64,000 nucleotides of DNA. Source: Trypanosoma brucei (taxonomy: Eukaryota). The DNA lies in assembly GCA_000002445.1 (NCBI GenBank), contig CM000207.1, positions 992,001 through 1,056,000 of the forward strand, read 5' to 3'. Shown here in pieces: positions 246-43,782 of this stretch; position 1 is the stretch's first letter, and each line of letters starts with the position of its first letter. The position numbers were made by a program, and so were the translations under genes. Under the pieces are notes generated by a model. That model did no database searches. It worked only from the letters and a program-made list of their open reading frames with translations, and was not told the DNA's origin.

Positions 246-356
246 CCTTATTTGCTGTCATCACTCTTTAATTTTATATTTGGGCTGATTCTTATAACCT
301 TGTCACTACTATTTATACATACCCTTGTATCTTACGTTAGATCACACTTCTTACCT

Positions 357-3787: not shown

Positions 3788-3980
3788 TTGAGTTTGTGTT
3801 GTTGGGATGGTTCAGTATTCTGCTGACCATTTGCTGTACGTTTGTGTTTTTGTCGACATAGTTTTTCGTTATGTGTAGTTTGCTGCAGGTTAGGAAGTTG
3901 AGTCATCTAGGAGAGCACGCATTTTGCCCGTATGTGGAATTGGTATCTTAATTGAGAATATAACGTCTCCAGTTGTGGGA

Positions 3981-4003
3981 TATATATATATATGTATATA
4001 TAT
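3981..4003. repeat. (TA)n microsatellite in the type-B spacer.
   Basis: tatatatatatatgtatatatat. Confidence 0.9.
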
Positions 4004-4369
4004 TCTACATGCATATCTAATTCACAAACAATGCGTCACCTTGAGGTGGCTGTTCACTACGAACTTTGTTACGCTTGGTTCCTCAATTTTTGGGTTGGAC
4101 TCACCACTCATTGTGATCGGCTACGTTGTGGTACCCGGTTTATTGACTCTCTGCCTCTAGTGGCACATTATTAACTGTACATGCCACCGTGCTTTTCGCC
4201 CTTATTTGCTCCCTTTACGGTGGCCAATTTATATTTAACTTCTTCTTCATTTTGAGTGCCTTATTTGCTGTCATCACTCTTTAATTTTATATTTGGGCTG
4301 ATTCTTATAACCTTGTCACTACTATTTATACATACCCTTGTATCTTACGTTAGATCACACTTCTTACCT

Positions 4370-5809
4370 ATGAGCAGCACAGACAATGATATCGTTGAGG
4401 AGCCCCGCAGTTTCCGGAAGGAATTAGAGAACAGTAACGTTAGGGGTGTGTTGTTGTTTGTATTCATTGATGGTGCTGCGTCCTCCATATGGTCTTCCCA
4501 ACCGTACCAGGTGATGGTCAGTCGCCTTGCAGGTGATACTGCAGTTGGTTGGGTATCCGCTGCCGCTGGAGTCGCACAAATCGTTGGCGCATTGATAGCT
4601 GGTGGTGTTCGCAATGTGCCCCGTCAAGTCATCTGCCGCCTCAGCGCCTTTTGTGGTTTGGTTGCTGTGATCATGTCAGTTTATGGTATTACAACCCAAG
4701 ATATAATGATATATTACTTTGCTTCTGCGCTGTGGGGCATGTATGGAGGGATGGCGTTCACGGGGACTGAAGCGCTGTTTGCTGACAGTGTTGAATCAGG
4801 AAAGCGCGGCTTCGTGTACAACCTGAAGTGGATCAATGAAACAACAAGCTCATGCGTTGGCTCCCTTATCCTGCTTATCATGACACTCTACCTTGGAAAC
4901 GACTGGGATACAAATGTCTTGAAGATTCTCATGTATACCGGTCTTGCCGTTCACCCCACCGCTTTCTTTGCTTTACTCGGCATGAAAGACAAAAACATTC
5001 TCCACGTTGATGATGGGTGTGAAGATTGCGAGCAATCCGCATCGGAAGCAAGCCAACGTCGACTGACTGATGGTGACTCATCAACCAAACCTTTACTGGG
5101 AGGAACTAAGGATATAATCGAAGAGGACGGCTGGGATGAAGAATCTGAGGAAGAGGAAAGAAATTGCTGTGACTACCTCTGTACTGGGGTCACATCCTCC
5201 TGGCAATGGCTCTTCACTGTGTCAGCTTTACCGTTTTTGCTCGCTTTGGGTAATTTGCTTATTTCCGTTGGCTCTGGAGTCACAATGCAATACATTTCCC
5301 TTTATTTTATAAAAGAACGTCACGTAACTCCTATTATGTTTTTCATTACAAACATTGCTGTCAATATCTGTATCGCGCTTTCTTCCACGATGGTGCGTTA
5401 TCTCAGCGAGCATCACCTTGATCGTGTGAGTGCCACCATACTCGTACGCACACTTAGTGCGTTTTTCATGCTAACAATGGGTGTGATTGAACTTCCTCTT
5501 GTTGCGCTTCTACCGATATATGTTTGCCGTAATGCTTTAATGAATTCCACCGCGGGAGTTACACGCAGTATCATTATGGACTGCGCTCGCAGGGAGAACC
5601 GTGCGATGTGGGCTGCATTCGAGTGTTTTGTTTCTTTCATGTGGTCGGCAAGTTCTGTAATGGGCGGATACATTGCTAGTGCGAAGGGATATAAGTATAC
5701 ATTTGTCATCACTGCCCTAATTCACTTTATTGCTATGTTTGTATTGGTGCCGGCCATATCTGGTGTGCGGCAGTTGGACAGACACGCAAAAGCGAAATCA
5801 CGAACTTGA
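4370..5809 (+). CDS. MFS-like transporter, array copy 3 (mosaic: 5' two-thirds identical to copy 1, internal patch shared with copy 2, 3' end like copy 1).
   Basis: Identical to copy 1 through about aa 290. It then reads LLALGNLLISVGSGVTMQYISLYFIKERHV (the TMQYISLYFIKERHV stretch matches copy 2), AVNICIAL and SAFFMLTM, and ends HAKAKSRT like copy 1. Confidence 0.8.
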   Translation: MSSTDNDIVEEPRSFRKELENSNVRGVLLFVFIDGAASSIWSSQPYQVMVSRLAGDTAVGWVSAAAGVAQIVGALIAGGVRNVPRQVICRLSAFCGLVAVIMSVYGITTQDIMIYYFASALWGMYGGMAFTGTEALFADSVESGKRGFVYNLKWINETTSSCVGSLILLIMTLYLGNDWDTNVLKILMYTGLAVHPTAFFALLGMKDKNILHVDDGCEDCEQSASEASQRRLTDGDSSTKPLLGGTKDIIEEDGWDEESEEEERNCCDYLCTGVTSSWQWLFTVSALPFLLALGNLLISVGSGVTMQYISLYFIKERHVTPIMFFITNIAVNICIALSSTMVRYLSEHHLDRVSATILVRTLSAFFMLTMGVIELPLVALLPIYVCRNALMNSTAGVTRSIIMDCARRENRAMWAAFECFVSFMWSASSVMGGYIASAKGYKYTFVITALIHFIAMFVLVPAISGVRQLDRHAKAKSRT

Positions 5810-22921: not shown

Positions 22922-22947
22922 TCGTGACGACGAGCACACACCCAAAC

Positions 22948-22963
22948 ATATATATATATATAT
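22948..22963. repeat. (TA)n microsatellite just 3' of the coiled-coil gene.
   Basis: atatatatatatatat. Confidence 0.85.
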
Positions 22964-23333
22964 TATCTATTATATGGAAGCGTTACTGAATAGTTGAGTA
23001 AATCCACCGCTAGAAGAAACATTGTATTCCATTTAGGCACGAAGTCACTGCCTCATACCCCCCCCTTCGTGCTTCGTAAGCACGCTAAGCGCAGATGGTA
23101 TTTGTAATCTTCAACTACCCTTATTTTCGACGATAGAAGTCCTCCTATGATCGCTAATTTCACCCTTTTTTTTTCATTGTCAGATAACATACACAAATAT
23201 TTCTTTTTTTTTTATTCAATTTAAGGGGCATCGGTGGGTCGACATCAATAGGGATCAAAGTTATTTTTTTCTAGTTTCAGTGAGTGTAAAAGTTGAAGGC
23301 AGGGAAAAAGAAGGAAGACTGCAAGAAGAAACC

Positions 23334-24038
23334 ATGACACTGGAGGGCGGCATCAGCGACTGGGAGGTCATCGATGAGTCGGAAGAATCATTCGATGAAA
23401 CTGCGGGTAAACAAACAAATGACCGTTGCGCAAATGTTGTTGTTGTTGGATATGGCAACAATGATTGTGACGACGATGAAAACACTGGCAAGCTTTTGTC
23501 GTCGACGGATTCCTTTAGTTTAGCAGGCACTCCTCGTGAGCGCAGTAATCTAAAAGATGAGGAGGAAACCCGGCGGCAGAGAAATGCTGTAAGGATGGCG
23601 GACCTGAACACGAACGCCACCACTGAAGTGGATAACGAAACACATGATGAATTAGCTGAAATAAAAGAGCTTTGTGCGGTGCAGCAGGAACAACTGAAGC
23701 GGCAGGCTGAGGAAATACGTGAACTGAAGGAACGCCTCAATGAGAGGGCAATGCATTCAGAAGAGCGCACTAGAATTATTGAGGCGCAGAGTAAGAGGAT
23801 CGGTTGTCTTCTTAGGGTGGTAGAGCGACTAAAAAGCCGAGAGTCCAGTAAAGTTTTCTACCAAGATGAGGAAAATGCTGAATTGCAAATGGGGCTCGAG
23901 CATTTGAAGGTTGGCACGAATAATTCTCACCACCATGCACCAATGTTTAATACAGCCCCGCCACAGCGAAGGGCTTTGATATTCGAATGTCGCAAGCAGC
24001 CGAGCGATTGGGAAACGCCGATTGGCGAAGGGGCCTAA
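23334..24038 (+). CDS. Hypothetical small acidic coiled-coil protein, about 234 aa.
   Basis: First ATG in a frame that the track opens at a GTG (23280). Central predicted coiled coil: ELAEIKELCAVQQEQLKRQAEEIRELKERLNERAM. Confidence 0.4.
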   Translation: MTLEGGISDWEVIDESEESFDETAGKQTNDRCANVVVVGYGNNDCDDDENTGKLLSSTDSFSLAGTPRERSNLKDEEETRRQRNAVRMADLNTNATTEVDNETHDELAEIKELCAVQQEQLKRQAEEIRELKERLNERAMHSEERTRIIEAQSKRIGCLLRVVERLKSRESSKVFYQDEENAELQMGLEHLKVGTNNSHHHAPMFNTAPPQRRALIFECRKQPSDWETPIGEGA

Positions 24039-24952
24039 GGAGCCAAACAAATTGATAAAGTGCGAGTGTTTCGTTCCAGCACGAAAAATGGGTTCCGGAA
24101 GGGGAGCTTCAGAGGAGCGTAAAGTGTTTTCCCATTTCCCATGTGTATGTACGAAATCAATTATAAGTTGTGTGGGAAAACTGTAGTAGAAGAGGAAAAC
24201 GAGAAGATTTGGAGGAAAGTTTCGTTAAGCCAAAACAAGAAAGAGGTGGAAAAAGAAAACAGTAATTTTTAAATCTCTTTATTTCATTATTGAAAGGATT
24301 TCTGCCTTTTAATTTCCCTCTGTCCTTTCTTTTTTCCTTTGGTTCTTGCTTTACCGTATGAACAAACTCCACAAACAGGAAGTAGAGGTGAAAAAGAGGA
24401 AAGTATTGTAGTAATAATAGCACAACGAAACAAAATAAGAAGCAGAAAACTTTCTTCGAAGGCGAATGTAAGGGGAAGAAGCAAAAATACCGTAAAAGAA
24501 AAATAGCGACCGATGATAGAAAGGGGGGAGGAACAGGGCACAAAGCACATGGTTTTGACTTGGTGAAGCGAAGTGAAACTTGACGGTTTGGTGAACGTTC
24601 TCGTTTTCATTTTCCGCGTGCATGCGTTTGGGTGTGCTTGCATTTTGATTCGTTTTTTTCTTTTTTTTTGTACAAATAAACTATACATATGCGAAGGTAC
24701 GCATGTCCTCCGTGAGTTCGGCTGCGGTCAAGAGTGCGTTGAAGGGTCGATGGTGTGTCAAACGTTCCCCCTGGATCGTTTATTAACGTTTTGTTGTCAC
24801 TAAATTTACCATACTTTTTTCTTCCTCCTTTCCTAATGTTAAGAGGTTTGATCACCACCTATTTTTTTTTCTACTTCACATATATATGTATATCGGTGTG
24901 TGTTAGCTAATATATGGGTATTTGCTTGCTTTATTATTATTATCATCATCAT

Positions 24953-24985
24953 TATATATAGATATATAGATATATAGATATATAT
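24953..24985. repeat. (TATAGA)n / (TA)n compound microsatellite.
   Basis: tatatatagatatatagatatatagatatatat. Confidence 0.85.
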
Positions 24986-25959
24986 TCTAGTTAACTGTGG
25001 AGTGGTGCGGTCCACGCGCACACAGAAATGCCACTCACTTTGCTCCTTCATCCTTTTTTTTGTTTAATTAACTGCCACGACACTCACCAGAATTTTATGT
25101 TTCCACATCTTGTTTACTTGTTGTTTTTTATGATTTTGGAGTTCGTTGATTCCTCCACTGTAACTTATCACCGCGGCACCACTGCCCGACATATAACCGT
25201 TGAGCGAAGGGAGGAGGAAAATAGGAACGAAAAAGTACATCTCATGGCTTACTTATGCGCCTTATTACATATTGGTGTTTATGACTCATTGGGCTTCGTT
25301 CCTCATTCCTTTCTCTTCTCTTTTTTCTCTCTTCTAGTTTTAAGTGTAGTTTTTTTTTTGTCATTTATGTCTCGTTCTGTTTCTTCTTTTCCTTCACGCA
25401 ACTTCTCACGACTCCTGAGTGAGGTGTGATGCTTGTCATTTATTTAAATAAACTTCTTGTGGCAGAAAATGGGATGATGTGAGTGGCCTTTTTACTCCGG
25501 CTGCTTTGAAGAGGGTCACTTAAGTTGGCTCGGATGCAACGAAAGAAGAAAATTCTGAGGAGAAGTGACGCCGTGATGGCGACATGTGTTAGGAATATGG
25601 TGTTGTTGTTTGCGCCTTTTCATTTGACGAACATTAAGTTTAATTTTATTCTTGGGAGATGGGGGTGGGGGGTGGATTTCGATTGCGTGCAGCTGTAGGG
25701 ACCTCAGGTCCTGAGTGTATTTTGCCAGTCCTGACTAATATAATATTCGCACAATTAAGCATACGTATTATGTATATCTCAGCTGCTGTAGTCGTCCTGC
25801 TATTACTTTTGCTTTGCGTTTTGTTTCCATCTCACATATAAAATACAATTACCATCGTTGTCAAAATTGGAACGCACTACACGACTCATTGAGAACCTTT
25901 GTCGTAGCTGCCGCGGTCAATCGTGCTGCAGTAACTGTTTTTTTTTTTCTACCCCTGAC

Positions 25960-27960: not shown

Positions 27961-29909
27961 GTCAGGTGTATTTGGAGTGACGCATATTCGTGCAAGTGTA
28001 ATTCACATATATGTAAACGTTGGAGGTTTTAATATATAGGGAAGGGAAACTATTTTCCTACACTCTGAGAGTGTAAGATTACGAAGGAGAAGGAAGTTAC
28101 CTGGATATCTTGCGCTGGTTTTGTTCCTCCGTGTGCCACGTGATGTGGGACGGACTCTCGGGAATTGGAGCGATCGCATGTGATAAGGACAACTATCGGA
28201 GTGAGAGACTAAACCATTTCGTCCTGTTCCAGCCCCAAATTTGTTGGCGTGTGCGGGGCACTTTACTTACCGAATTTAATAACTGTGCCACATGCCCGGA
28301 GAATCGTGTGCGCGAAGGTATGCCAGCTATATTCTTCATTTTTCCTTTCCTGTTTTCACTGCATTTCTCCCCGCTACTCACATGGTGTATGTACTAGGTG
28401 TGAACTGTTGAATAACTCAGCTGCTTTTTGTTTTTGGAAAGATGCTGAATCGGCACGGTACCCGACTGGATATTGGAACCCCAGAGGATGTGGCTGAGTT
28501 GGATGCTGCAGAGGCGCTCCGGCGGCAGTACGATGGTGCCCCATACCCCAATTGCCCTGGTGGTAGTTCCGTTCCCCTACAGGAAAGAGATGCGAGTTGC
28601 TTTGAGCGACATTGTTATCCTCAGTATTATTCTCATCACCCTCAACAACAGCAACAGCCGCCATCGCAGCAATGAGGGCGGAGGCGAACGCATTTATTGC
28701 AAAACTAATCTCTGCACTGGGAGGAGTGTGTAATTAGAGCGCCGGGAAGTCAATTCCTCACCTCTATAATGAGTGCGGTGGGACCATACAAACTCAAAGG
28801 GGCGAGGCGCCGATTTCCCGATACTTATGGAGAAAGTGGCTGGAGGATGGAGTTGTCAAGTATTTATTGATCTTACGGTTTGTAACCTGAGGTTAATGTG
28901 TGTGGCGGGCAGTGCCGCACGTTCCCCTACTCGTTCTGCATGACGGGTTGTCACCATCAATGGTCTCAATTTGCCCCTCCAGTTGCTTGTATACCCGTAG
29001 GATATAGGGAAGAAAAAATATATCCATCAACCGCTAGATGTGGAAATATCGCAATAGACTTGCCGCATCCGACCAGGCTGATTTCCACAGTCTGATCCCG
29101 TATGGGTGTCGTCCCTGCATGGTATCCCCGTGAGGTTTACTCTCTTCGATACAACACTTCCTCCCCTACCCCCCCCCCTTGTCCTTCCTCTCACTCATTG
29201 GCAGTCAATGATTTACTTCCTTCCTCGATCTGATTTCCTTCGTGGGGTTCACAACGCAGCGAAAGAAACAGCCAGTATATACGTATTTGCCATGAGCTCC
29301 ATTCTTACCGCGTGTATCTGAAAATGTGACTGCAATCAGTTCTTGACTCGTTTGCTCCGTTTCCCCCTCCCTCCCCCCCCCCACAGTTGTTGGGGAAATC
29401 CTCCTGTACGTTGCGTTCGTGAAACGAAGTCGGAAAGGTTCTCATCCCTTCACTAGAGCCTTCGACGCTCGGAACTTGTTCCACACCGTGAGTTCTGAAG
29501 GTGTGACACAGGGGAAAGATATCTCTGGAGATAATTAATCCTGACTTGCTGTAGTAACCTTGGTTTCATTGTCTAATGTGGGTTGGTGTTTGCCAGATCA
29601 GCCGTGAAGTGTATGTCCTTTTCTTCCTTATCGGTTGTGAGATCAGCTATTGAGGGTGCTCAAGTCAGCTTACTCGGGAGAAGGCGTGCGCTTCGCTGCA
29701 TATTACTGTGGGGTGGATGATGGTTCCTGTCGGCCGGCTACTTCTCTCTTCCCTTCTGTTTCATCGCTCCAAGAGAATTTCGACAGTAAGGGACTTTAGT
29801 GTCACGGGGAACGGGAGACTGGGAATAAAAGAGAAAAAAGAGAAGGGTCTGGGTCTCAAAAGCAGTGACACACTCGAACTTGTGGTGAGGCCACACGACC
29901 ACCCAGTCA

Positions 29910-34508: not shown

Positions 34509-36689
34509 ATGGGCAGTGATAGTAAATCTAGTAAGTCCAAGGACAAGAACTTCTCATCAAAGGGTAAAATTGAGAAGTATAACAAGGATGGTACCGAAAC
34601 AATTTTGATCATGGGGCGTCCCTTTCGTATTGTGCAGAGGTTAAGTGAGAAGGTGCTTAACCCGGAGGCGAAAAGCTCGAAGAAAAGCAGCAAGAAAGCT
34701 AAGGATGTGTACTCCTACATTGTGGTTGTTGAAAACATTGAAGCTTTACCAATGTTTGCCAGGTATGTCGTTGTGAAGCGTACCTTTTTCAAGATAGACG
34801 AGGTGTTGTTGGCTCATCGGGAGCCTGAGATTTTGAATCGCGTTCGCGATAAGGGAATCCTGCACGTGTTCCACAGTGAAGTAACACGGAATGATGGGCG
34901 TTTGGGAACAACCGTGGCGATGGAGTACTGCCCCGGAAGTTTGGAACAGCGCCTGCAGCAGGAGACTCGGATGTTAGAAAGTGAAGTGGTACAAGTGTTG
35001 CTAGCGCTGGCTAGTGTGTTGGGTTACTTGCACTCTAGGCAGCCCCCGGTTGCACACCGTAACATTAATCCAAGCAATGTGTTAATTCACTCGGAGTCGG
35101 CAGGAGCGAGCGCATACCGCCTCTACAACTTTAGAAGTGCCATGACGGAGGCGTACCACTGCGAGAACCACGAGGAGGTAGTGGCGGCCATGGAAGACTT
35201 TGCCCGCTACACCACGGCAGGGTACCGGGCGCCTGAAATGTTAGACCCAAGTAGTCACAAGCGTATTGATGAACAGGTAGATATGTGGGCTCTTGGTGTG
35301 CTGCTGTACTACACAATGTACCAGCGCCTGCCCTTCACGGATGCATGCTGGGGGCTGGCAAGAAAACCCAAGTTACGCTACCCCGTGGAAGCTGAAGTGT
35401 GGTACACGGGCTCACTACGCATCGTGCTTGAGCATCTTCTTGAACCAGATCCGGAGAAGAGGTGGGATGCGTTTGCTCTCATCAACTTCATGCGTTTCGA
35501 CAATGACCTATGCAGACACATTGGACCCTTCTGCTTCTCGCAGACTGAGCGGCCCGAGGGATGGGAACCGCAGGACGTGAAGGTAATTGGCCGCCCAGTT
35601 CCAGCCAAAGTTCTCCCGGAGAGGTTGCGAAATACTGGCCAGTCCGACGATCCGGCTGCTGCAGCGCGTGACAACAGGGACGAAGCGGCTGCCACCTCCG
35701 TCAAGAGCCGCACAGCGGCACAGGAGTCTGGAGATAATGATCAAATGGTTCTCAAGGCAGTAACTGCGCTGAGTTCAGATACCGCTTCCACAGATCCCGA
35801 GGTGCTAGCCTACCGTGAAAAGCTCATTCGTGAACAGGAGGAGGCATGGCAAGTGGCAGAAAGCGCACACAAAAAGCGGGATAAGGAAGACAAGGATGGG
35901 GCGACCTCTGGACCGGCAGATGTTGATTCATTGTTTGGTCCAACTGAAAAGAAGGAAGCTGTCAAGGAAAACAAGGCATCTGCTATTGACGACTTATTTG
36001 GTGGCATGGAGACACAACCATCACAGTCTCAAAAACCAACAACGGATGACCTCTTTGGAGGCGCCTCTACAGCTACTGCGAGCAACCAAATCCCACCCCA
36101 GGGGTCCCAAGTTGGAGCTAACGACAGTTGGAAGGATGATCTCTTCGCTGCGCCACCTCAGCAACCACAAATGCAACCTCAACCGGCCTTTCCAATGGCA
36201 GCTGACAGTAGTTGGAGCACCGGAGCACCAACATCGGTGCCAATGAATCCAACCGGCGGCATGATGGGTCAACAACAGGCCCCCATGGGATGGGGAAATG
36301 GAGTAACAGCTCCGGGTTTCCAACCAATGCAAACTCCACAAATGCAACAACAAGTTCCTGGTGGATGGGGAAATGGAGCAACAGCTTCGGGTTTCCAACC
36401 AATGCAAACTCCACAAATGCAACAACAAGTTCCTGGTGGATGGGGAAATGGAGCAACAGCTCCGAGTTTCCAACCAATGCAAACTCCACAAATGCAACAA
36501 CAAGTTCCTGGTGGATGGGGAAATGGAGCAACAGCTCCGGGTTTCCAACCAATGCAAACTCCACAAATGCAACAACAAGTTCCTGGTGGTGCCCCCGGTT
36601 TCATGGGCGGAAACGACCTATTCCAAAGGCCACAGCAGCAACAGCCACAGCAACCAGAGAAGGACCCCTTCGCCAGTCTCTTCAAGTAA
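34509..36689 (+). CDS. NAK/AAK1 (Ark/Prk)-family protein kinase-like protein, predicted pseudokinase. Long low-complexity tail with DLF/DPF adaptor or clathrin-binding motifs and 4 x 25-aa Q/P/M-rich repeats.
   Basis: Kinase subdomains: HRNINPSNVLI aligns to AAK1 HRDLKVENILL, so the catalytic Asp is replaced by Asn. YRLYNFRSA aligns to VLCDFGSAT, so DFG is replaced by NFR. The NAK-specific activation segment ...GYRAPEM... is conserved, followed by DMWALGVLLYYTMYQRLPF. Tail motifs: VDSLFGP, IDDLFGG, TDDLFGG, KDDLFAA, NDLFQ, DPFASLF. Confidence 0.8.
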   Translation: MGSDSKSSKSKDKNFSSKGKIEKYNKDGTETILIMGRPFRIVQRLSEKVLNPEAKSSKKSSKKAKDVYSYIVVVENIEALPMFARYVVVKRTFFKIDEVLLAHREPEILNRVRDKGILHVFHSEVTRNDGRLGTTVAMEYCPGSLEQRLQQETRMLESEVVQVLLALASVLGYLHSRQPPVAHRNINPSNVLIHSESAGASAYRLYNFRSAMTEAYHCENHEEVVAAMEDFARYTTAGYRAPEMLDPSSHKRIDEQVDMWALGVLLYYTMYQRLPFTDACWGLARKPKLRYPVEAEVWYTGSLRIVLEHLLEPDPEKRWDAFALINFMRFDNDLCRHIGPFCFSQTERPEGWEPQDVKVIGRPVPAKVLPERLRNTGQSDDPAAAARDNRDEAAATSVKSRTAAQESGDNDQMVLKAVTALSSDTASTDPEVLAYREKLIREQEEAWQVAESAHKKRDKEDKDGATSGPADVDSLFGPTEKKEAVKENKASAIDDLFGGMETQPSQSQKPTTDDLFGGASTATASNQIPPQGSQVGANDSWKDDLFAAPPQQPQMQPQPAFPMAADSSWSTGAPTSVPMNPTGGMMGQQQAPMGWGNGVTAPGFQPMQTPQMQQQVPGGWGNGATASGFQPMQTPQMQQQVPGGWGNGATAPSFQPMQTPQMQQQVPGGWGNGATAPGFQPMQTPQMQQQVPGGAPGFMGGNDLFQRPQQQQPQQPEKDPFASLFK
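36288..36590 (+). repeat. Four tandem 75-bp in-frame coding repeats (25-aa unit GWGNGATAPGFQPMQTPQMQQQVPG) inside the kinase-like gene.
   Basis: The unit starts at 36288, 36363, 36438 and 36513, a period of exactly 75 bp. Copies differ by 1-2 nt (V/A, G/S). Confidence 0.9.
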
Positions 36690-37854
36690 TGTTTTACATG
36701 ACTGCAATACTGGCACAGAACAGCATCATACGTCACCCCCCCCCCAAAAAAAAAGGGGGGGTTAGTTGGGGTACATTTTTTCTTAACAAAAAAAAAGAGA
36801 AAGGTAAAAGAAATAAAGAAATACCAACTAACAATTAAGAGAAGGAAAGGAACCCGCAGGTCATACCCTCTTTATTCCACCTCTCTTTCCTTCTGTTTTG
36901 TTCTGTTCGGTGTTTAAACCTGATTCAACATGTTCAATTTTCTGCTGTGTCTCCCCATTCTCAATCACATCCACCTCTTTTTTTATTTTTATTTTTAGTA
37001 TCAGTGTTTCATTTTTTTTTCTTTTTTCGTTTATCATCACTTTATTATTATTATTATTACGTCCCTCCGTTGTTTGTGCTTTTTGATATACTTGCTAATG
37101 CTTTGAAGTGTGTGAGGGGAAGGGGAGGAGGGAGAGAAAAAAGAAAAAATGAAGAGGGGAGGGGAGGGGGATTTATCAAGAGAGAACAAACAAAAGGAAA
37201 GAAACGGTTTTGTTTTCTTTTTGAGAAAATAAATAAATAATGAATAACATATGTTTTATCATAACCTCCATTTGCGGATTCCAATGAAGGGCGTGGCAAA
37301 ATCCATAAGGAAGAGGGTTGTGCGCATGTGTTTCTTTTTATTATTATTATTTGCTTACGTTCATAAAAAGTAGAGGAATGGAATGGAAAGAGATGGGAAG
37401 TGGAGGGAATGAATGAATGAATGAATTGGAAACCGAAATGATTAGAATAAAAAAAAATGAAGGAAAAAGCAGGTGGTTTACCGCCGCTCATAGACCAAGC
37501 ATTTACATACGTGCATAGATACAAAAAAAAAAGAAATATATAAATATATATTTATATACATGTACTGGTGTGTATTAATGTTTATTTGTATGTATTTTTT
37601 ATATATTTTGGTGTGCGTACGTTTGCGTGTGTGAGCGAAAGGGGGAGGGGGGAGGGGGGAGAGCAGACGGGGACGAAAAGGGGTGGAAATATAATGTTTA
37701 CTTTTTTTTTTCTTCTTCTCTCTCTCTCTTTAAAACTTTAATTTCCGTTAGGAAAAGAGGGGGAAAAAAGATAACGTGTGGGTATGAGAGTTTATTAGGA
37801 ATCCTGATTGGTGTTGGTCGGTTCCGTGTGTGTGTGTATGTATGAATGTATGTG

Positions 37855-37876
37855 TCTCTCTCTCTCTCTCTCTCTT
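37855..37876. repeat. (CT)n microsatellite, preceded by (GT)n at 37826-37838.
   Basis: ctctctctctctctctctctct. Confidence 0.9.
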
Positions 37877-39544
37877 GTGGCCAGCCTCATGGTGGGACCG
37901 CGCGTGGAAGAAAGAAAAAAAGAAAAGGAAAAGAGGAAAGAAACAAAACAAATAGGAAAGAAAATGAAATGAAAGAGTTTTTAGTACCCATCACTGCCTT
38001 ATGGGTGGATTCGTCACTAGCCATCGTCCTGCGCACTCTTTTTTTTTTTTGAAAAAAAAGATTTTCTTCTCTTCCTTTTCATCTCTTTTCATATGGGTTT
38101 ATTATTGCTCCTCATTCCACACATACGCAAACAAATATATATATATATAATCCCTTCCTTTCACTTCACAAAGCAATTCAGGGATTCCATTTGCCATCAA
38201 TGCGAACTTGCTAGGACAACATTTTCTTTTTAAAAAAAAACAAATTGCAGGGGCACGGTGTGTCTGTTCGTACCGGGTTACCCCTTTTTGTTTGTCAATT
38301 ATGCACAAATTTGTGCACTGCTTACGCCATACAAACATTATTATTATCATTATTATCATGCAGTGATTTTCTCTCTTGTCTACAAAGAAGAAGAGGCACA
38401 TGTTCGTGGTTTTTTTTCAATTTTTTTTGTTGTTGTGTGTTTGTATTTAACTTCGCTGTCGTGGATGCATGCGAGTTATCGTCTTGGAGGTCATAAAACG
38501 CAAGGACGGAAATAACAAAAATAAACAATACCAACGCCACAAATGCTGAAATACCGTCTTTATTCCCTTCATTTATCTTTCCCTTGTTTTTTCTTTAAAA
38601 AATTATTTTAAGTTGTTGTTGTTTTTTTCCTATAAATATATTTATTTATATTTCCTGTCGTTACGGCGGTCACGGCATTATTTGTGTGGATCGATTGTCA
38701 CTCATATGTCGAGGAAAGAAAGTTGAAGGTATGAAGATGAACTGAGAGCAGAGATTGGGAAATAATAATAGTAATAATAATGAAAAGAAAAGAAAAGAAA
38801 ACTCAGAAGGCGTCATTTTGTGTAAGGTCCGGGAACTTGTATCCTTTATTATCATTATCACTATTATTATTATTACTGTGCTTGAAAAAAAAAATTATAT
38901 GTATTTATTTGGTTTTTTTCCTCTTTTGAAAGAAGAAAAAATACCAGAGAAAACAAAAAAAAGGAGGACGAAGAGAAAAATCGTATTGTCAACTCACTTG
39001 CTATTTGATCTGAACGTGTGTAAGAGATGAGGAAAATGGACTTTAATGAGTCAACATATTTCAAAACTGAACAAAAAAAGAGAAAAAAAAAAAAAGAAAG
39101 ATGCTCGACACGATAAAGGGAGTGAAGAAGAACCAAAAGGAGGAAAAATATTTAAAAAAAGAGAAGAAAAGAAACGAGAAGAGAAGAGAAGATAAAAGAA
39201 TATGCGTCGGAAACAACAAAAACAACAATTTTTTTTAAAAAAGGTAAAACAGCACAAAAACAAAAAAAGTGAGAAGGCTGCGTGACGGTTACTTGGGAGT
39301 CGAAAACTGCTATTGGCATGTTGCATCATTCCATTCAGTGTTACATGGACCCTGAGGTGCCACGCGCATTATTCCTATTGAAACAAATCTTTTTTTTTTG
39401 TAGTTAATCTTATTAAATATGTGTTTTCTTTTTTTTTTTCTTTTTTCTTTTTTGATGTTTTTAAACTCCCCTCTACACCGCGATTATTCGCGTCTTCTGA
39501 TGCCTTCCAACAAGGCCTACAAAGCTGCGCGTGTCTTTTCTGTT

Positions 39545-39575
39545 TGTTTTGTTTTTGTTTTTGTTTTTGTTTCTC
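39545..39575. repeat. (GTTTTT)n microsatellite.
   Basis: tgttttgtttttgtttttgtttttgtttc. Confidence 0.85.
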
Positions 39576-41613
39576 TCTCTCTTTTTGCTCGTAGTGAAAC
39601 AACAAATGAAACGGAATATTTGCTGGACCTCACGTGTTTCTTTGCTATTCTTCTTTCTTTGTTTATTTGGTGTTTGTTTATGTTGTGTGGAGTTGAGACC
39701 AAAAAGAGATGAGAAGTGTGTAATCATTCTCAGCTTTTATTGCTCAGTCTCTTTCTGTTTTGTTAACGCTTTTCTTTTTTTTTTTTTATTGACCTTCCTT
39801 AACTTTCGTTTTTATTTTATAAAAAAAAACAAAAAAGAAGAAATTATATCTATCTTTCTTTCCTTTTCTCTTTTTTTTTTATATCCTCTTTTCGTACAAT
39901 TCCACTGCCCTTTCAATCTCTTTTACCCTTTCTTTTTCTTGTTGTTGTTCCTCTTTCCCACTTGTGTGATGATATCATATACGCTGCCTATTTACAACTA
40001 TTTTTTTTTCCTTCTTATTTCTCTCTTTTTTACTTTTCTTTTATTTTTTTTTTAAAACAAACAAATATGCGCTGATGTCAAGTGGAGACGGAAACTGAGG
40101 TGCTAAAAGGCAAGTTTTTAAACGTACCTGAAGCAACTAGTATCACTTTCTTCTCTATTTTCATAAAGAAAAAAAACATTGTAGTAGTTGACATATATAC
40201 ATATATCAGTCTAGCTGTTCTTTTGGGTTCTGAATAGGCAGTTAGAAGTACAAACGAATAAATTTTGTAAAAATAAAAAAAAACAGTACAAAAGCATCGG
40301 GGGGAACGGAGCGAGTTTGCATCTTCATCCGCATAAAAATCCATTTATACGTACATATATATATATATGCCAGAATCCTTGCGGTTTTATAGGATAACAT
40401 TTATCTCCTTTGGTTCGGCATTATTTTGTGTTATAATATTAAATTGCAGAGTGGCGTCGTGTATCCAAGAGAAAATGGGTGGTGAAAGTAGTGCCCCCCA
40501 ACCGACTAATGATTCGTCCGGCAATGACTTCAGCAACAATGGCAATAATAGCGATAATAATAATTCCAATAGCAGTATTAAAAACGACAATTACAATAAA
40601 CCAGTGCCTGGAGCTGAAGGGCAAAATGACGGGTTGCATTTCCCCCAGCGTCTCGTCTGTCGCCTGCCGGAACGAAATTTTCCACTTCCGGTTTTAACCC
40701 TCAAGGAAGGTCACGGGGTTGCATCAAATACAACTAAGAAGTAACACACATGACAACACGCGTTTGTGCATTTGTTTTGTCTGTAATGTAATGTTAATGA
40801 AATGAAATGAAATAGGGAGGAAAGAGAAAATAGCGTGTTATTAGCGTAGATATGACTCAGGAAAAGGGGAAATGAAGTATTTACAAGAGTGCCATTTCCT
40901 CCCCCCCCCTTCCCTCGTCGTTATTATTTTTACTATTGTGTCGTTATCGCTTTTTTTTTTCTTTTTCACCGTTTTTGGTATTGTTGTTGTTTGTTTTTAA
41001 TTCTTTTGGGGGGGTTCGGTTGAACCCTATGCGTCTCGATATCAAATCCAAGAGAATAAAACAAAAAGGGAAGTTAAGGAGCCGGAGGGCTCTTTTCAAG
41101 GCCCAGCTATGTTTTCTCTTGCAAGGGTACGTATGCGCTTCCTTTGATTTCTTTTTCTGTATGCCGTTTTATGCACGTTCTCCCACTTCGGTCATAATTA
41201 AAAAACAAAGATTCGCATCATTGGTTATTGATAATTTTCCTTCCCTTTTTGTTTTCCCTTTTTTATATTGGTTGCGGTCGCCCAACTTTCGGTACCCCAA
41301 AGTGAGTCTCAAACATCAGCTACACTCTTCCCGTTCGTGTGAAACATTTTGATGTTCCTGCCTTTATTTTTTGGTGATTTTCCCTCCCAAGTTGAATTCG
41401 TTACTTGTTATTACCACTGTTATTCTTATCATCACACTATTATTAATTGCCTTTTGTTGTTTTTGTTGTTGCTTTCGGGTTGCCTCCCATTCTAACACGG
41501 GTGGGCATGTCATGCGAGAGAGAGAGAGAGACGCCAAGACGCGTGCGGGAGAGGGAGTTGAGTAACACCCGCTAAAAACGAAAAAAAAAAAAGGGAAAAG
41601 TTAGCAGCGCCTT

Positions 41614-43782
41614 ATGGTTCGTGTGAAGGAAAAGGCTCGGAAGGGTGACGATGCGTTCAAGACACGGAAACAAAAAGTCGGGCGGAAAAAACTCGCCCCG
41701 GCAACAGCCACACGGGCGGAGGTACACGCCCGCACACTTCGCGTAACGACACCAACAGCAATCACTCGAGGGATTCTCGAGAGCGAGGCCGTAAGAACGG
41801 GGGAGAACTGCCAAACTCATAAAGGTGAGAAAGAAAAACGTGTGGTGTCGGCGGACCAATTACACCGAGACTTTAAGGAACATCTTGCGGGCACGAGGCA
41901 TTACAAAAAGGTGGTTCGGTCCACATCCTTCGCATCACTCACGAGGGCCGTCGCTGGGCACTTCTCAGCGGTCGGAAGGGCGGATGACTCATCAGCAATG
42001 GGGAATGAAACGCAACTGAGCCCATTGGAGATTTTGTACGCCTACACGGGAGCACTCGATGCCATGACGGACACTGATGATGACGTCCGACGCGCAGCTT
42101 TGGGCACGTTGAAGGTCATTTTGTATCGACGCAAGCCGGCAGCACAAATCGATGAGCAGGGGAGTGGTGCCATGGAGGCCGGTGGCGGTTCCGCTACGGC
42201 GTTTAACGTGGACCAGGCACGCGCCGCTTTGCGTGTTGTGGATGTAACATTAACCCATGCAATGGTGTCGGTGCGGCGGTCTGGAGTGGAACTGTTACAA
42301 CTCATCTTACAGGTGCAACCACTCAGCGTTAGGGCAGTGTTGAGTGAATCAACCACATGGGTGAAAATGGCAGGTCGTATCTCCAGCATCGTTCTGCCCA
42401 GCACGAGTAACGGAAGCGGCAACAGTCCATCGACAAAAATGTTTCATGTGGTTGCTGACCTACTCGAAACAATGATACCTCTGCATCGAAGTGAGAGTGA
42501 TGCGTGGAATCAGGGGTGCCCGCGAGCGCGACATGCTGTGGATGAAGTGGTTGACAAACAAGGCGAAAGTAACGTATCACTCTCTGCTTTGGTTGCTCAA
42601 TTTTTTGATGAGTGCAGTCCTCGGTGGTGTGTGGCATGGAAGGAACTCATGGAGTTGCGCGCTGCATTATTCCGTGATGTGGAATGGGTGAGACACGCTA
42701 CAGCGCTGGCACGTGCGTTTGCCTGCTGTGCGATGTACCTGTGGGACCATCGCCTGCTTGGCCGAAAGAACTCGCGGCTCATGCACCACCTCTTCACTGT
42801 CAAAGTACCCTTCACTATGCATGAACTGATTGCTCCCAGAGACCCCACTGCAGAAAGCGGTTGTGGGGTTGGTAATGGCAGTAAATGGCGCGTTGAATTA
42901 GCCAACGCCATAGCCAACGCTTGTCTTCCACTCGCCGCCGCAAATGATGACACCTGGGAAGTGTTGCATAACTTCCTCTCGATTAGTTTTCACTGTGCAA
43001 AGGATTCGGACTCCTCAGATGGGACGTCTTCCGCTGGTGAAAGCGGTAAATCCAGGCGTGCTACCCAACTTGTTGGGCCCGTGCGTACTCTGCGAACAGC
43101 GGTGGTACGCCTTCATCAGGCTTTACTTCCACGTTTGCTTCCGATTGCATCACCCCTTCTTCAAATAGTTATGCAAGCGACTAATCTGAGTGACAGTAGC
43201 GAAACAGATCGGTTGGCGTTAGTAGACGTGCTGCTGATGTCGGCGGATGTGTTTTCTTCATTTGTAACCTCGCAAGTCGCCGTGCAAAATCCTCAGAACA
43301 TCCGATACCTTCGTGACGTCGTTTTGGTGGTTCCTCGTTTTTTTTTCGCCCTGCGCGGTCTCCAGATGGAAGCCGCCTGCCTCGACCGCATCGTCTTCTC
43401 TTTCCTGTATCCGTTGTGGAGGGTGGTAAGCAGCGGTCATCCGCTACTGTCTTCACCAATGCCAAACAAATTACCAGGCGGCGCGCCGTCTTCCCCACAG
43501 GTTAATAAAGAAAACAAGCAAAAGATAACAGCTTTGCAACTGCTCGCTCGTTCCTTAACGTCCCTGTTTGAGATTCGCGTACCTGACAGTGGCGGTGAAG
43601 GCACATGCAGATCTGTTGCAGGTGTTCTGCAGCGTTGTAGCGACAGGACGGTGGAGTTAGCAGTGCACACATTGTTTTATGTGGGCGCGACGGTGCCGCC
43701 CACGAGCTGGACACGTGAAAACAATGTACTTTCCCTTCCAACACTCGTGGACACTTTGCCGCGACCCGGTGTTTGTGCGTGA
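41614..43782 (+). CDS. Hypothetical protein, 722 aa, with a basic N-terminus.
   Basis: ATG-initiated + ORF. N-terminal K/R-rich segment (MVRVKEKARKGDDAFKTRKQKVGRKKL). Leucine-rich helical body. No motif recognised. Confidence 0.6.
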   Translation: MVRVKEKARKGDDAFKTRKQKVGRKKLAPATATRAEVHARTLRVTTPTAITRGILESEAVRTGENCQTHKGEKEKRVVSADQLHRDFKEHLAGTRHYKKVVRSTSFASLTRAVAGHFSAVGRADDSSAMGNETQLSPLEILYAYTGALDAMTDTDDDVRRAALGTLKVILYRRKPAAQIDEQGSGAMEAGGGSATAFNVDQARAALRVVDVTLTHAMVSVRRSGVELLQLILQVQPLSVRAVLSESTTWVKMAGRISSIVLPSTSNGSGNSPSTKMFHVVADLLETMIPLHRSESDAWNQGCPRARHAVDEVVDKQGESNVSLSALVAQFFDECSPRWCVAWKELMELRAALFRDVEWVRHATALARAFACCAMYLWDHRLLGRKNSRLMHHLFTVKVPFTMHELIAPRDPTAESGCGVGNGSKWRVELANAIANACLPLAAANDDTWEVLHNFLSISFHCAKDSDSSDGTSSAGESGKSRRATQLVGPVRTLRTAVVRLHQALLPRLLPIASPLLQIVMQATNLSDSSETDRLALVDVLLMSADVFSSFVTSQVAVQNPQNIRYLRDVVLVVPRFFFALRGLQMEAACLDRIVFSFLYPLWRVVSSGHPLLSSPMPNKLPGGAPSSPQVNKENKQKITALQLLARSLTSLFEIRVPDSGGEGTCRSVAGVLQRCSDRTVELAVHTLFYVGATVPPTSWTRENNVLSLPTLVDTLPRPGVCA

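What the first reader, a model, noticed from the sequence alone, without database searches (positions are those of the whole stretch)
36690..41613. Unusually long (4.9 kb) gene-free low-complexity tract inside an otherwise dense same-strand gene cluster
Intergenic spacers elsewhere in the window are 0.3-2 kb. This one is about 5 kb with no credible ORF. It is built from alternating blocks that are strongly pyrimidine-rich on the + strand (36850-37090, 39400-40070) and strongly purine-rich (37100-37240, 37370-37470, 37880-37980, 38700-39270), plus six microsatellites. Candidate explanations are: a very long regulated 3'UTR for the pseudokinase gene; a non-coding RNA locus (snoRNA cluster or lncRNA); or a replication or transcription-related landmark within the transcription unit. 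None can be decided from sequence alone.
Basis: seen in the sequence. Interest (0 to 1): 0.55.

Follow-up and report, generated by a model that had tools for sequence, protein, structure and literature searches.

The report
Long kinase 3'UTR plus overlooked small gene
The 4.9 kb "empty" stretch in this Trypanosoma brucei chromosome 9 window is most likely the long untranslated tail of a pseudokinase mRNA followed by a small, translated, genus-conserved protein gene that the genome annotation dismissed as "unlikely", so it is mostly ordinary trypanosome gene architecture with one modest annotation correction.

Summary
The window is T. brucei TREU927 chromosome 9 (Tb927_09_v4 coordinate = window + 992000). 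The tract lies between the AAK1L1 pseudokinase (Tb927.9.6560 / Tb09.160.4770) and an Ipi1-like gene (Tb09.160.4830).

It is the longest spacer in the window: 4,924 nt, GC 0.36. It has strong purine/pyrimidine blocks and at least 14 microsatellites. It is not gene-free.

- **Splice site:** a spliced-leader acceptor is annotated at 40083. It sits after the first AG downstream of the 660-nt pyrimidine block.
- **Small ORF:** a 284-nt ATG-free leader follows, then an ORF at 40367/40475-40744 (125/89 aa, Tb09.160.4810, "hypothetical protein, unlikely").
- **Translation:** published ribosome profiling shows it translated in both life stages. The flanking ORFs 4800 and 4820 are transcribed but carry no footprints.
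- **Conservation:** syntenic homologues exist in T. cruzi, T. rangeli, T. theileri and T. melophagium, and a homologous protein (locus not examined) in T. grayi.

The remaining ~3.3 kb (36690 to about 39950) is best read as the AAK1L1 3'UTR. This step is inferred, not shown.

I found no snoRNA, tRNA, repeat element, novel transcript or internal Pol II start site. Interest is low to modest.

The parts
34611..36689 (+). CDS of the AAK1L1 pseudokinase (Tb927.9.6560 / Tb09.160.4770), upstream neighbour. Annotated start is 34611; the tool's longer ORF starts at 34509.
   Evidence: 100% identity to the TREU927 'protein kinase, putative'. Pkinase domain. Gene identity. Coordinates 1025964-1028689 with a 646-nt 5'UTR and a CDS length entry of 2078.
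36690..39950 (+). Putative 3'UTR of the AAK1L1 mRNA, about 3.3 kb, low complexity, alternating purine-rich and pyrimidine-rich blocks with microsatellites. The 3' end is inferred, not mapped.
   Evidence: - No translated ORF. Tb09.160.4800 (39606-40055) has RNA at 52.5/22.3 RPKM but footprints 0/0.1.
- Its RNA level and BF/PF ratio are like the kinase CDS (35.9/18.3).
- No novel transcript in procyclics.
- Poly(A) sites lie a median 142 nt upstream of the next splice site, which places the end near 39900-39960.
- Composition.
36866..37058 (+). First pyrimidine block (three polypyrimidine tracts of 27-52 nt). The AG-free gap 36858-36997 is followed by AGs at 36997, 37003 and 37107. This is a candidate cryptic or alternative trans-splice signal.
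   Evidence: third-longest AG-free gap in the tract. No use of it is documented.
39390..40054 (+). Large pyrimidine-rich block holding six polypyrimidine tracts of 30-57 nt. It is the splicing signal for the acceptor at 40083.
   Evidence: Y fraction 0.59-0.76. Tracts at 39849-39880, 39917-39963 and 39998-40053 all have their first downstream AG at 40081. The longest AG-free gap of the tract, 242 nt (39839-40081), ends here.
40081..40083 (+). AG dinucleotide (40081-40082) and first transcribed base (40083) of the annotated spliced-leader acceptor site.
   Evidence: Vasquez et al. 2014 give Tb09.160.4830 the location 1032083-1035782 with a 1530-nt 5'UTR, taken from genome version 4.2 UTR annotation. 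1032083 minus 992000 is 40083, directly after the AG.
40083..40366 (+). ATG-free leader (5'UTR) of the small-ORF mRNA.
   Evidence: 0 ATG in 284 nt at GC 0.33. Shuffles give a mean of 5.7 and P(0)=0.002. Only 2.9% of intergenic 284-nt windows lack ATG. It lies within the longest ATG-free gap of the tract.
40367..40744 (+). Small protein-coding ORF Tb09.160.4810 (EAN76694, 'hypothetical protein, unlikely'). It is 125 aa from the first AUG at 40367. The conserved 89-aa part starts at the second in-frame AUG at 40475, which has A at -3 and G at +4.
   Evidence: - Footprints 107.1/41.9 RPKM and translational efficiency 1.56/2.39 in BF/PF.
- Homologues in T. cruzi, T. rangeli, T. theileri, T. melophagium, T. 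grayi and T. equiperdum.
- Substitutions by codon position 52/42/72, P=0.015.
- No Pfam family. Predicted disordered.
40745..41370 (+). Inferred 3'UTR of the small-ORF mRNA. It includes the untranslated ORF Tb09.160.4820 (41029-41352) and a possible alternative acceptor at 41051/41053 after the tracts at 40892-40976.
   Evidence: Tb09.160.4820 has RNA at 81.4/62.9 RPKM and footprints 0/0.4. RNA over the '5'UTR' of 4830 is 3.6 times its CDS in bloodstream forms. Second-longest AG-free gap is 40888-41051. The 3' end is inferred from the 142-nt rule.
41397..41531 (+). Polypyrimidine tracts (41397-41433, 41447-41476) and a (GA)8 run giving AGs from 41517. This is the predicted proximal acceptor of the Ipi1-like gene Tb09.160.4830 (CDS 41614-43782).
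   Evidence: AG-free gap 41390-41517. Inferred; only the distal site at 40083 is in the annotation I could read.

Best explanation
The tract is not one empty spacer. It is the untranslated parts of three same-strand mRNAs in one polycistronic unit, plus one small coding sequence.

1. **36690 to about 39950:** the unusually long (about 3.3 kb), AT-rich, low-complexity 3'UTR of the AAK1L1 pseudokinase mRNA. By analogy with other long trypanosome 3'UTRs, it would act as a platform for RNA-binding proteins that set mRNA stability and translation.
2. **39390-40054:** the large pyrimidine block is the polypyrimidine signal. It directs spliced-leader addition at 40083 and, through the usual coupling, polyadenylation of the kinase mRNA about 140 nt upstream.
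3. **40083 to about 41400:** a roughly 1.3 kb mRNA. Its first AUGs (40367, 40475) open a small ORF ending at 40744. The product is a translated, Trypanosoma-conserved, probably disordered protein of 89-125 aa (Tb09.160.4810).
4. **41397-41531:** processing signals for the Ipi1-like gene. Part of that gene's mRNA population may instead start at 40083 and carry the small ORF as an upstream ORF.

**Shown:**
- the splice-site annotation
- translation of the small ORF
- absence of translation on the flanking ORFs
- conservation of the small ORF

**Inferred:**
- the two poly(A) sites
- continuity of the kinase 3'UTR
- any regulatory role
For: **Locus identity and coordinates**
- Window + 992000 = Tb927_09_v4. 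This is fixed by four annotated features: and the kinase stop at 1028689 = 36689.

**Splice site**
- The annotated 5'UTR start is 1032083 = 40083.
- It lies right after the first AG downstream of a 56-nt polypyrimidine tract, at the end of the longest AG-free gap of the tract.
- Leader: the longest ATG-free gap, P about 0.002.

**Translation (RPKM in BF/PF)**

| Feature | RNA | Footprints |
|---|---|---|
| Tb09.160.4810 | 58.9 / 16.0 | 107.1 / 41.9 |
| Kinase CDS | 35.9 / 18.3 | 129.2 / 68.8 |
| Tb09.160.4800 | 52.5 / 22.3 | 0 / 0.1 |
| Tb09.160.4820 | 81.4 / 62.9 | 0 / 0.4 |

**Separate small-ORF transcript**
- RNA over 40083-41613 is 46.1 against 12.8 RPKM for the downstream CDS in bloodstream forms.

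**Conservation**
- The small ORF is the only non-low-complexity block shared by the spacers of T. cruzi, T. rangeli and T. theileri.
- The shared motif is F.P..VC..P....PLPV.
- A profile search of 1.84 billion proteins finds only Trypanosoma members.
- The same arrangement of tract, AG and ATG-free leader stands before the ORF in four other species.

**3'UTR reading**
- Kolev et al. list no novel transcript and no internal Pol II start in the interval.
- Tb09.160.4810 is absent from their list of ORFs without a transcript, while 4800 and 4820 are on it.
- The kinase-to-small-ORF distance is long in every species examined, 1.6-2.1 kb.
Against: - No poly(A) site for the kinase or for the small-ORF mRNA could be read. 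The relevant tables were truncated or not held. Continuity of 36690-39600 as one 3'UTR therefore rests on indirect evidence.
- A good splice-acceptor-like signal sits only 170-420 nt after the kinase stop (tracts at 36866-37058, AG at 36997/37107). It could give a short 3'UTR plus a separate RNA.
- The codon usage of the T. brucei small ORF is not gene-like: log-likelihood about 0 per codon against +0.17 to +0.37 for real genes.
- pN/pS is only 0.57-0.65.
- T. brucei has lost the N-terminal half of the conserved motif.
- T. cruzi Dm28c carries a frameshift in the C-terminal part.
- No peptide evidence was seen.
- Procyclic RNA levels differ fourfold between 40367-40744 and 41029-41352. The simple one-transcript picture needs at least one extra isoform.
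Confidence: 0.7

Rival explanations
1. The kinase mRNA has a short 3'UTR. It is polyadenylated near 36850, coupled to trans-splicing at 36997-37107. The 37.0-39.9 kb stretch is then one or more independent, spliced-leader-capped long non-coding RNAs.
For: - Pyrimidine tracts of 43, 27 and 52 nt at 36866-37058, and the third-longest AG-free gap (36858-36997), are followed by AGs.
- T. cruzi has a similar AG-free gap 340-475 nt after its kinase stop.
- RNA is present at 39606-40055 without translation.
- Over a thousand lncRNAs are reported in T. brucei (PMC9200285).
Against: - Kolev et al. list 1,114 novel SL/poly(A) transcripts, some at abundances as low as 0.04 per cell. None lies in 1028690-1033613.
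- The RNA level and BF/PF ratio at 39606-40055 (52.5/22.3) track the kinase CDS (35.9/18.3).
- No conserved non-coding block is shared with other species.
- No Rfam match.
Confidence: 0.17
2. The small ORF has no mRNA of its own. It is only a translated upstream ORF in a 1.5 kb 5'UTR of the Ipi1-like gene Tb09.160.4830, and it acts in cis on translation of that gene.
For: - The public UTR annotation assigns the 40083 acceptor to Tb09.160.4830.
- Vasquez et al. count the 377-nt ORF as its longest uORF, with 2 of 12 uORFs footprint-covered.
- The downstream CDS has a low translational efficiency, 0.69-0.70.
Against: - In bloodstream forms, RNA over the '5'UTR' is 3.6 times that of the CDS (46.1 against 12.8 RPKM), and footprints are 3 times higher (27.5 against 9.0). 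Most RNA carrying the small ORF therefore lacks the downstream CDS.
- A good proximal acceptor signal lies 90 nt before the 4830 start codon.
- Kolev et al. do not list 4810 among ORFs without their own transcript.
- The peptide sequence, not only the ORF, is conserved.
Confidence: 0.2
3. The tract hosts a snoRNA cluster or another small structured RNA that is processed out of the polycistronic transcript.
For: - Trypanosome snoRNAs can lie in intergenic regions or in 3'UTRs (PMC3273796; Kolev Figure S7 caption).
- One C-box/D-box pair lies at 39966-40075.
Against: - No Rfam family reaches its gathering score in the whole window, and nothing snoRNA-like from trypanosomes appears at E<=10.
- The single C/D pair has no terminal stem, is mostly poly-pyrimidine, and is within chance.
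- No tandemly repeated units.
- No conserved block outside the small ORF.
Confidence: 0.03
4. The tract marks a replication origin, an internal transcription start or stop, or a chromatin landmark inside the transcription unit.
For: Unusual length, low GC and strand-asymmetric purine/pyrimidine blocks.
Against: - Genes on both sides are on the same strand.
- The cumulative GC skew keeps rising across the tract.
- Kolev et al. place Tb09.160.3470 to Tb09.160.4950 in one Pol II unit, with the next internal start beyond 4950.
- RNA and footprint data show ordinary mRNA processing signals that account for the pyrimidine blocks.
Confidence: 0.05

Closest known systems
Very long 3'UTRs of T. brucei regulatory-protein mRNAs (for example the 7.3 kb RBP10 3'UTR; PMC8982893)
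   Same: - Multi-kilobase, AT-rich, low-complexity 3'UTR downstream of a kinase-family gene.
- It ends at the polypyrimidine tract of the next trans-splice site.
- The literature states that the longest 3'UTRs cluster in kinase and RNA-binding protein mRNAs.
   Different: - The end of this 3'UTR has not been mapped here.
- No regulatory element has been defined.
- The kinase mRNA is only about twofold stage-regulated.
- About 3.3 kb is long (the median is 388-400 nt) but well inside the reported range of up to about 6 kb.
Small protein-coding genes of T. brucei recovered by RNA-seq and ribosome profiling (Kolev et al. 2010; Vasquez et al. 2014)
   Same: - A short ORF with its own splice acceptor.
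- Ribosome footprints in both life stages.
- Homologues that are unannotated or poorly annotated in other trypanosomes.
   Different: - This ORF was already in the annotation, but flagged 'hypothetical protein, unlikely'. As a group, that class is not translated (median ribosome release score 0.19).
- Its codon usage is not gene-like and the protein is predicted disordered.
Translated upstream ORFs in long trypanosome 5'UTRs
   Same: The ORF lies inside the annotated 1530-nt 5'UTR of Tb09.160.4830 and is footprint-covered.
   Different: - At 89-125 codons it is far longer than typical uORFs. The mean uORF length is about 118 nt even in this UTR.
- Its peptide is conserved across the genus.
- In bloodstream forms the RNA carrying it outnumbers the downstream CDS 3.6 to 1.
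Intergenic lncRNAs of T. brucei such as grumpy (PMC9200285)
   Same: A same-strand, non-translated, polyadenylated RNA region lying between protein-coding genes.
   Different: - No independent splice-leader or poly(A) transcript is listed for 36690-40082.
- No embedded snoRNA.

Membership tests
Trans-spliced protein-coding gene (small protein) of Trypanosoma | Polypyrimidine tract followed by an AG acceptor, with a mapped spliced-leader site upstream of the ORF | tested here: met
   Tract at 39998-40053, first AG at 40081, annotated 5' end at 40083. The site is from public annotation read in a supplement, not from raw reads.
Trans-spliced protein-coding gene (small protein) of Trypanosoma | The ORF is the first AUG-initiated ORF on the transcript (AUG-free leader) | tested here: met
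   No ATG in 40083-40366. Shuffle P about 0.002. Longest ATG-free gap of the tract. There are 0 ATGs in the predicted leaders of T. cruzi, T. theileri and T. melophagium.
Trans-spliced protein-coding gene (small protein) of Trypanosoma | Ribosome occupancy specific to the ORF | tested here: met
   261 and 368 footprint reads (107/42 RPKM), against 0-3 reads on the flanking ORFs at equal or higher RNA levels. Reading-frame periodicity was not available.
Trans-spliced protein-coding gene (small protein) of Trypanosoma | Amino-acid conservation at the syntenic position in other species | tested here: met
   Syntenic ORFs of 73-89 aa in T. cruzi, T. rangeli, T. theileri and T. melophagium, plus T. 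grayi P0028 (75 aa; its locus was not examined). HMM E-values 1e-16 to 1e-40 in one frame only.
Trans-spliced protein-coding gene (small protein) of Trypanosoma | Purifying selection and gene-like codon usage | tested here: inconclusive
   pN/pS is 0.57-0.65 with saturated synonymous sites. The codon-position pattern 52/42/72 gives P=0.015. The codon-usage score is about 0. T. cruzi Dm28c carries a frameshift.
Trans-spliced protein-coding gene (small protein) of Trypanosoma | Detected protein product | not tested
   No proteomic data could be consulted for this ORF.
Long regulatory 3'UTR of a trypanosome mRNA | Continuous same-strand RNA from the stop codon to a poly(A) site about 100-200 nt upstream of the next splice acceptor | tested here: inconclusive
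   RNA at 39606-40055 is comparable to the kinase CDS. No coverage data were available for 36690-39605, and no poly(A) sites could be read.
Long regulatory 3'UTR of a trypanosome mRNA | No independent transcript and no translation inside it | tested here: met
   No novel transcript in procyclic forms. Footprints are 0/0.1 RPKM on the only annotated ORF inside it. Bloodstream-form SL maps were not available.
snoRNA cluster | Matches to C/D or H/ACA covariance models, box motifs with a terminal stem, and tandem cluster repeats | tested here: not met
Internal Pol II start/stop or strand-switch landmark | Mapped 5'-triphosphate start sites or a unit boundary at this position | tested here: not met
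   Kolev et al. Table S14 shows a single unit from Tb09.160.3470 to Tb09.160.4950. Histone variants, base J and ORC binding are not testable with these tools.
Dispersed repeat / retroelement remnant (RIME, ingi, SIDER-like) | Similarity to other copies | tested here: inconclusive
   No similarity to the other 59 kb of the window or within the tract. No genome-wide T. brucei repeat library was available.

The most novel reading that the evidence does not exclude
The small ORF and the Ipi1-like ribosome-biogenesis gene would form a stage-switched pair that shares the acceptor at 40083.

- **Bloodstream forms:** most transcripts end before the Ipi1-like CDS and produce a Trypanosoma-specific disordered microprotein. 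RNA is 58.9 RPKM for the small ORF against 12.8 for the downstream CDS.
- **Procyclic forms:** the balance reverses, 16.0 against 34.7 RPKM.

The choice of processing site within this tract, rather than mRNA decay alone, would then set the level of a 60S maturation factor. The conserved peptide motif F.P..VC..P....PLPV would have a function of its own.
Probability: 0.15. Interest if true: 0.5.

Novelty: new member of a known kind. Interest (0 to 1): 0.25.

Why it matters
For genome scanning, the lesson is that very long, low-complexity "empty" intervals in trypanosome transcription units resolve into ordinary processing anatomy: polypyrimidine tract, AG, AUG-free leader. They can also hide small genes.

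For trypanosome biology there are two modest points.
- AAK1L1 joins the set of kinase-family mRNAs with multi-kilobase 3'UTRs. The long downstream spacer is conserved across the genus, which hints at post-transcriptional control of this endocytosis-linked pseudokinase.
- An ORF labelled "hypothetical protein, unlikely" (Tb09.160.4810) deserves re-annotation as a probable Trypanosoma-specific small protein. It is translated in both life stages, conserved in five other species, and expressed reciprocally to its downstream neighbour.

Neither point changes current concepts.

Tried and rejected
- **Rfam, whole window at gathering score and tract at E<=10:** nothing credible.
- **tRNA/tmRNA scan:** none.
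- **Naive C/D-box scan:** one stemless pair per strand, chance level.
- **Canonical G-quadruplex scan:** none in the tract, despite G-rich runs at 37110-37170 and 37641-37661.
- **Dispersed repeats or element remnants:** none within the window.
- **DNA-level conservation of the T. brucei tract with stercorarian spacers:** only low-complexity matches.
- **Leishmania martiniquensis locus:** synteny is broken downstream of the kinase and there is no small-ORF homologue.
- **Pfam on the small protein and its homologues:** no family.
- **AlphaFold2 with a 3-sequence alignment:** pLDDT 59, pTM 0.15, no secondary structure. I ran no fold search.
- **Codon-usage scoring:** does not support coding on its own.
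- **Exact look-ups of the kinase protein:** failed because the tool ORF starts upstream of the annotated start.
- **Supplement searches that gave nothing:**
  - Siegel 2010: no files held.
  - Nilsson 2010.
  - Antwi 2016.
  - Guegan 2022: no files held.
  - New-style gene IDs in Vasquez 2014.
  - New-style IDs in full text.
- **T. congolense and T. vivax:** these are the species at the right distance to test conservation of the 3'UTR, but their DNA could not be fetched.

Full report
**Identity of the window**

The long + strand ORFs, the GC contrast between coding (about 0.5) and spacer (about 0.36-0.45) DNA, and protein matches show that this is Trypanosoma brucei.
- The ORF ending at 36689 is 100% identical to the TREU927 'protein kinase, putative'. 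This is Tb09.160.4770 = Tb927.9.6560, the AAK1-like pseudokinase AAK1L1.
- The 722-aa ORF at 41614-43782 is identical to TREU927 EAN76696, an Ipi1 N-terminal domain protein.
- Four annotated features fix the coordinate relation Tb927_09_v4 = window + 992000:
  - Tb09.160.4800 at 1031606-1032055 = the ORF at 39606-40055
  - Tb09.160.4820 at 1033029-1033352 = the ORF at 41029-41352
  - the kinase stop at 1028689 = 36689
  - Tb09.160.4810 at 1032367-1032744 = the ORF at 40367-40744

**Check of the observation**

The interval 36690-41613 is the longest between long same-strand ORFs in the window. It is 4,924 nt against 2,936 nt for the next and 110-1,949 nt for the rest. It also has the lowest GC, 0.36.

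Extreme 100-nt windows are 3-5 times more frequent here than in the other spacers. Tandem Repeats Finder reports at least 14 short microsatellites. So the description holds, except for the claim that there is no credible ORF.

**What is not there**
- No Rfam family reaches its gathering score anywhere in the 64 kb. At E<=10 the tract gives only scattered plant and animal miRNA-type chance matches.
- There is no tRNA.
- A simple C/D-box scan gives one stemless candidate per strand, against about 0.17 expected.
- The tract shares no sequence with the rest of the window and has no internal dispersed repeats.
- Kolev et al. 2010 list no novel spliced-leader/poly(A) transcript in 1028690-1033613. 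The nearest are Tb9.NT.37 and Tb9.NT.38, at window 25338-25736 and 28983-29661.
- Their map of Pol II units puts Tb09.160.3470 to Tb09.160.4950 in one unit.

**The small ORF**

One ORF stood out: 40367-40744, or 89 aa from the second in-frame ATG at 40475. It sits in a local GC rise.

Annotation:
- The only close database match at first was a T. equiperdum protein.
- An exact look-up then showed that the same 125-aa protein is annotated in TREU927 as 'hypothetical protein, unlikely' (EAN76694) and in T. b. equiperdum.

Synteny:
- I fetched the kinase loci of other trypanosomes. The gene order of kinase, small ORF, 700-aa gene, 200-aa gene and AlaX-like gene is conserved in T. cruzi, T. theileri, T. 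rangeli and T. melophagium.
- Each has a 73-88-aa ORF between the kinase and the 700-aa gene. A T. grayi protein also belongs.

Shared sequence:
- The stercorarian proteins share G.L.PDG.V.PLD.P...F....VCKCP....PLPV.
- T. brucei keeps only the second half. FPQRLVCRLPERNFPLPVLTL compares with T. rangeli FAPQRVCCHLPPQQYPLPVVTV (tblastn E 3.6e-4).
- Among the spacers of T. cruzi, T. rangeli and T. theileri, this ORF is the only collinear block that is not low complexity.

Family limits:
- A profile search of 1.84 billion representative proteins finds only these Trypanosoma proteins.
- Pfam has no family for it.
- AlphaFold2 predicts disorder, with moderate confidence only over the conserved motif.

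Tests for coding selection:
- Substitutions between independent species pairs fall 52/42/72 on codon positions 1/2/3 (P=0.015).
- pN/pS is 0.57-0.65.
- Against a strongly constrained gene:
  - T. brucei codon usage is neutral.
  - T. cruzi Dm28c has a frameshifted C-terminus in two assemblies, whereas strain Y C6 does not.

**Published expression data**

The supplementary tables of Vasquez et al. 2014 (ribosome profiling of bloodstream (BF) and procyclic (PF) forms, PMC3973304) contain rows for every annotated ORF in the tract. I checked the column headers directly.

| Feature | Window coordinates | RNA, BF/PF (RPKM) | Footprints, BF/PF (RPKM) |
|---|---|---|---|
| Tb09.160.4810 | 40367-40744 | 58.9 / 16.0 | 107.1 / 41.9 |
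| Kinase CDS | 34611-36689 | 35.9 / 18.3 | 129.2 / 68.8 |
| Tb09.160.4800 | 39606-40055 | 52.5 / 22.3 | 0 / 0.1 |
| Tb09.160.4820 | 41029-41352 | 81.4 / 62.9 | 0 / 0.4 |

- Tb09.160.4810 has translational efficiencies of 1.56 and 2.39, ranks 2464 and 1387.
- The paper defines translation as at least 10 footprint reads. This ORF has 261 and 368.
- 'Hypothetical unlikely' ORFs as a class are not translated in that study, so this one is an exception.
- Kolev et al. list 4800 and 4820, but not 4810, among annotated ORFs without a detectable transcript. That table is stored uncut.

**Processing signals**

The same tables give Tb09.160.4830 a 1530-nt 5'UTR starting at 1032083, which is window 40083. 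In the sequence:
- 40081-40082 is AG. It is the first AG after the 56-nt polypyrimidine tract at 39998-40053, and the first AG for three successive tracts.
- The longest AG-free gap of the whole tract (242 nt) ends at this AG.
- The longest ATG-free gap (292 nt, 40075-40367) begins just upstream of it and covers the whole leader.
- The 284-nt leader at GC 0.33 has no ATG, where shuffles give 5.7 on average (P about 0.002).
- The first and second ATGs after the acceptor are the two in-frame starts of the small ORF.
- The other four species show the same order: tract, first AG, ATG-free leader of 120-181 nt, small ORF.

A second set of signals (tracts at 41397-41476, AGs from 41517 in a (GA)8 run) lies 90 nt before the start codon of the Ipi1-like gene.

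**One transcript or two downstream of 40083**

In bloodstream forms, RNA over 40083-41613 is 46.1 RPKM against 12.8 for the Ipi1-like CDS. Footprints are 27.5 against 9.0. Most RNA that carries the small ORF therefore does not carry the downstream CDS, which argues for a separate mRNA of about 1.3 kb ending near 41370-41450.

In procyclic forms the ratio is 26.6 to 34.7, and 41029-41352 is covered four times more than 40367-40744. This suggests additional isoforms, possibly using the acceptor-like site at 41051 or the distal site at 40083 for the Ipi1-like mRNA. This part is inference.

**The first 3.3 kb**

No table that I could read gives the kinase poly(A) site. The long-3'UTR reading rests on five points:
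1. RNA is present without translation at 39606-40055, upstream of the 40083 acceptor. Its level and stage ratio are close to those of the kinase CDS.
2. No independent transcript is listed for procyclic forms.
3. Polyadenylation is tightly coupled to splicing, at a median 142 nt upstream of the next splice site.
4. The distance from the kinase stop to the small ORF is long in all species examined: 1.6-2.1 kb, and 3.8 kb in T. brucei.
5. Median 3'UTRs are 388-400 nt with a range to about 6 kb, about 6% exceed 2 kb, and the longest tend to belong to protein kinase and RNA-binding protein mRNAs.

The main rival reading starts from the first pyrimidine block (36866-37058), which is followed by AGs at 36997 and 37107. 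If that block is a used acceptor, the kinase 3'UTR would be short and 37.0-39.9 kb would be a separate non-coding RNA. I give this about 0.17.

**Comparison with what is known, and verdict**

The tract works like the long 3'UTRs described for RBP10 and other regulators. The small ORF resembles the small coding sequences recovered by RNA-seq and ribosome profiling.

The tract is not a snoRNA cluster. No Pol II start is mapped there, and no independent lncRNA is listed for procyclic forms. Replication and chromatin marks could not be tested.

What is new is limited to one point: an ORF annotated as 'unlikely' is translated and conserved in the genus Trypanosoma, and it shows expression reciprocal to its neighbour between life stages. 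I rate interest at 0.25 and novelty as a new member of a known kind.

Noticed in passing
window 36288-36589: The C-terminal part of the AAK1L1 CDS holds four near-identical 75-nt (25-aa) tandem repeats (GWGNGATAPGFQPMQTPQMQQQVPG, 97% matches). Annotated protein length differs between T. brucei-group genomes (692, 721, 642 aa), and the T. equiperdum contig breaks about here.
   Followed up: partly
window 37042-37059, 37338-37349, 38862-38873: Three of the four (UAU)n>=4-type repeats in the whole 64 kb lie in the putative AAK1L1 3'UTR. From memory, UAU repeats are the reported binding motif of the RNA-binding protein ZC3H11. I did not check this in the literature.
   Followed up: no
window 40367-40474: If translation starts at the first AUG (40367), the T. 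brucei small protein gains a 36-aa N-terminal extension with a hydrophobic stretch (FYRITFISFGSALFCVIIL, Kyte-Doolittle 19-residue mean 1.94). No other species has this extension. From the second AUG the protein starts MGGESS, which fits an N-myristoylation-like pattern, also not conserved.
   Followed up: partly
L002 13719-13838 and L003 12948-13067 (T. cruzi Dm28c): In both Dm28c assemblies the C-terminal conserved part of the small ORF is in another frame than the N-terminal part. In strain Y C6 (L008 5001-5234) the ORF is intact.
   Followed up: partly
window 40367-40744 versus 41614-43782: The published tables show reciprocal stage regulation. Small-ORF RNA is 58.9 (bloodstream) against 16.0 (procyclic) RPKM. 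The downstream Ipi1-like CDS is 12.8 against 34.7.
   Followed up: partly
window 22922-25857 and 27961-29909: The second- and third-longest spacers hold 'unlikely' ORFs (Tb09.160.4730 at 24287-24688 on the - strand, Tb09.160.4740 at 25028-25429). They also hold the novel transcripts Tb9.NT.37 (25338-25736) and Tb9.NT.38 (28983-29661) of Kolev et al. Tb9.NT.38 lies inside the annotated 1511-nt 5'UTR of Tb09.160.4760.
   Followed up: no
window 243-5809: Three consecutive + strand ORFs of 517, 508 and 517 aa, spaced about 2 kb apart, look like a tandem gene array. Not examined.
   Followed up: no
window 39184-39257: The only sizeable length difference between this tract and T. equiperdum (L001) is a 74-nt segment in the purine-rich block, where T. 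equiperdum has about 24 nt. Otherwise identity is 97.8-98.7%, with indels mostly in microsatellites.
   Followed up: no
window 39966-40075: A C-box-like GTGATGA and a D-box-like CTGA lie 110 nt apart, just upstream of the 40083 splice site. There is no terminal stem and the interior is mostly poly-pyrimidine. Judged to be chance.
   Followed up: yes
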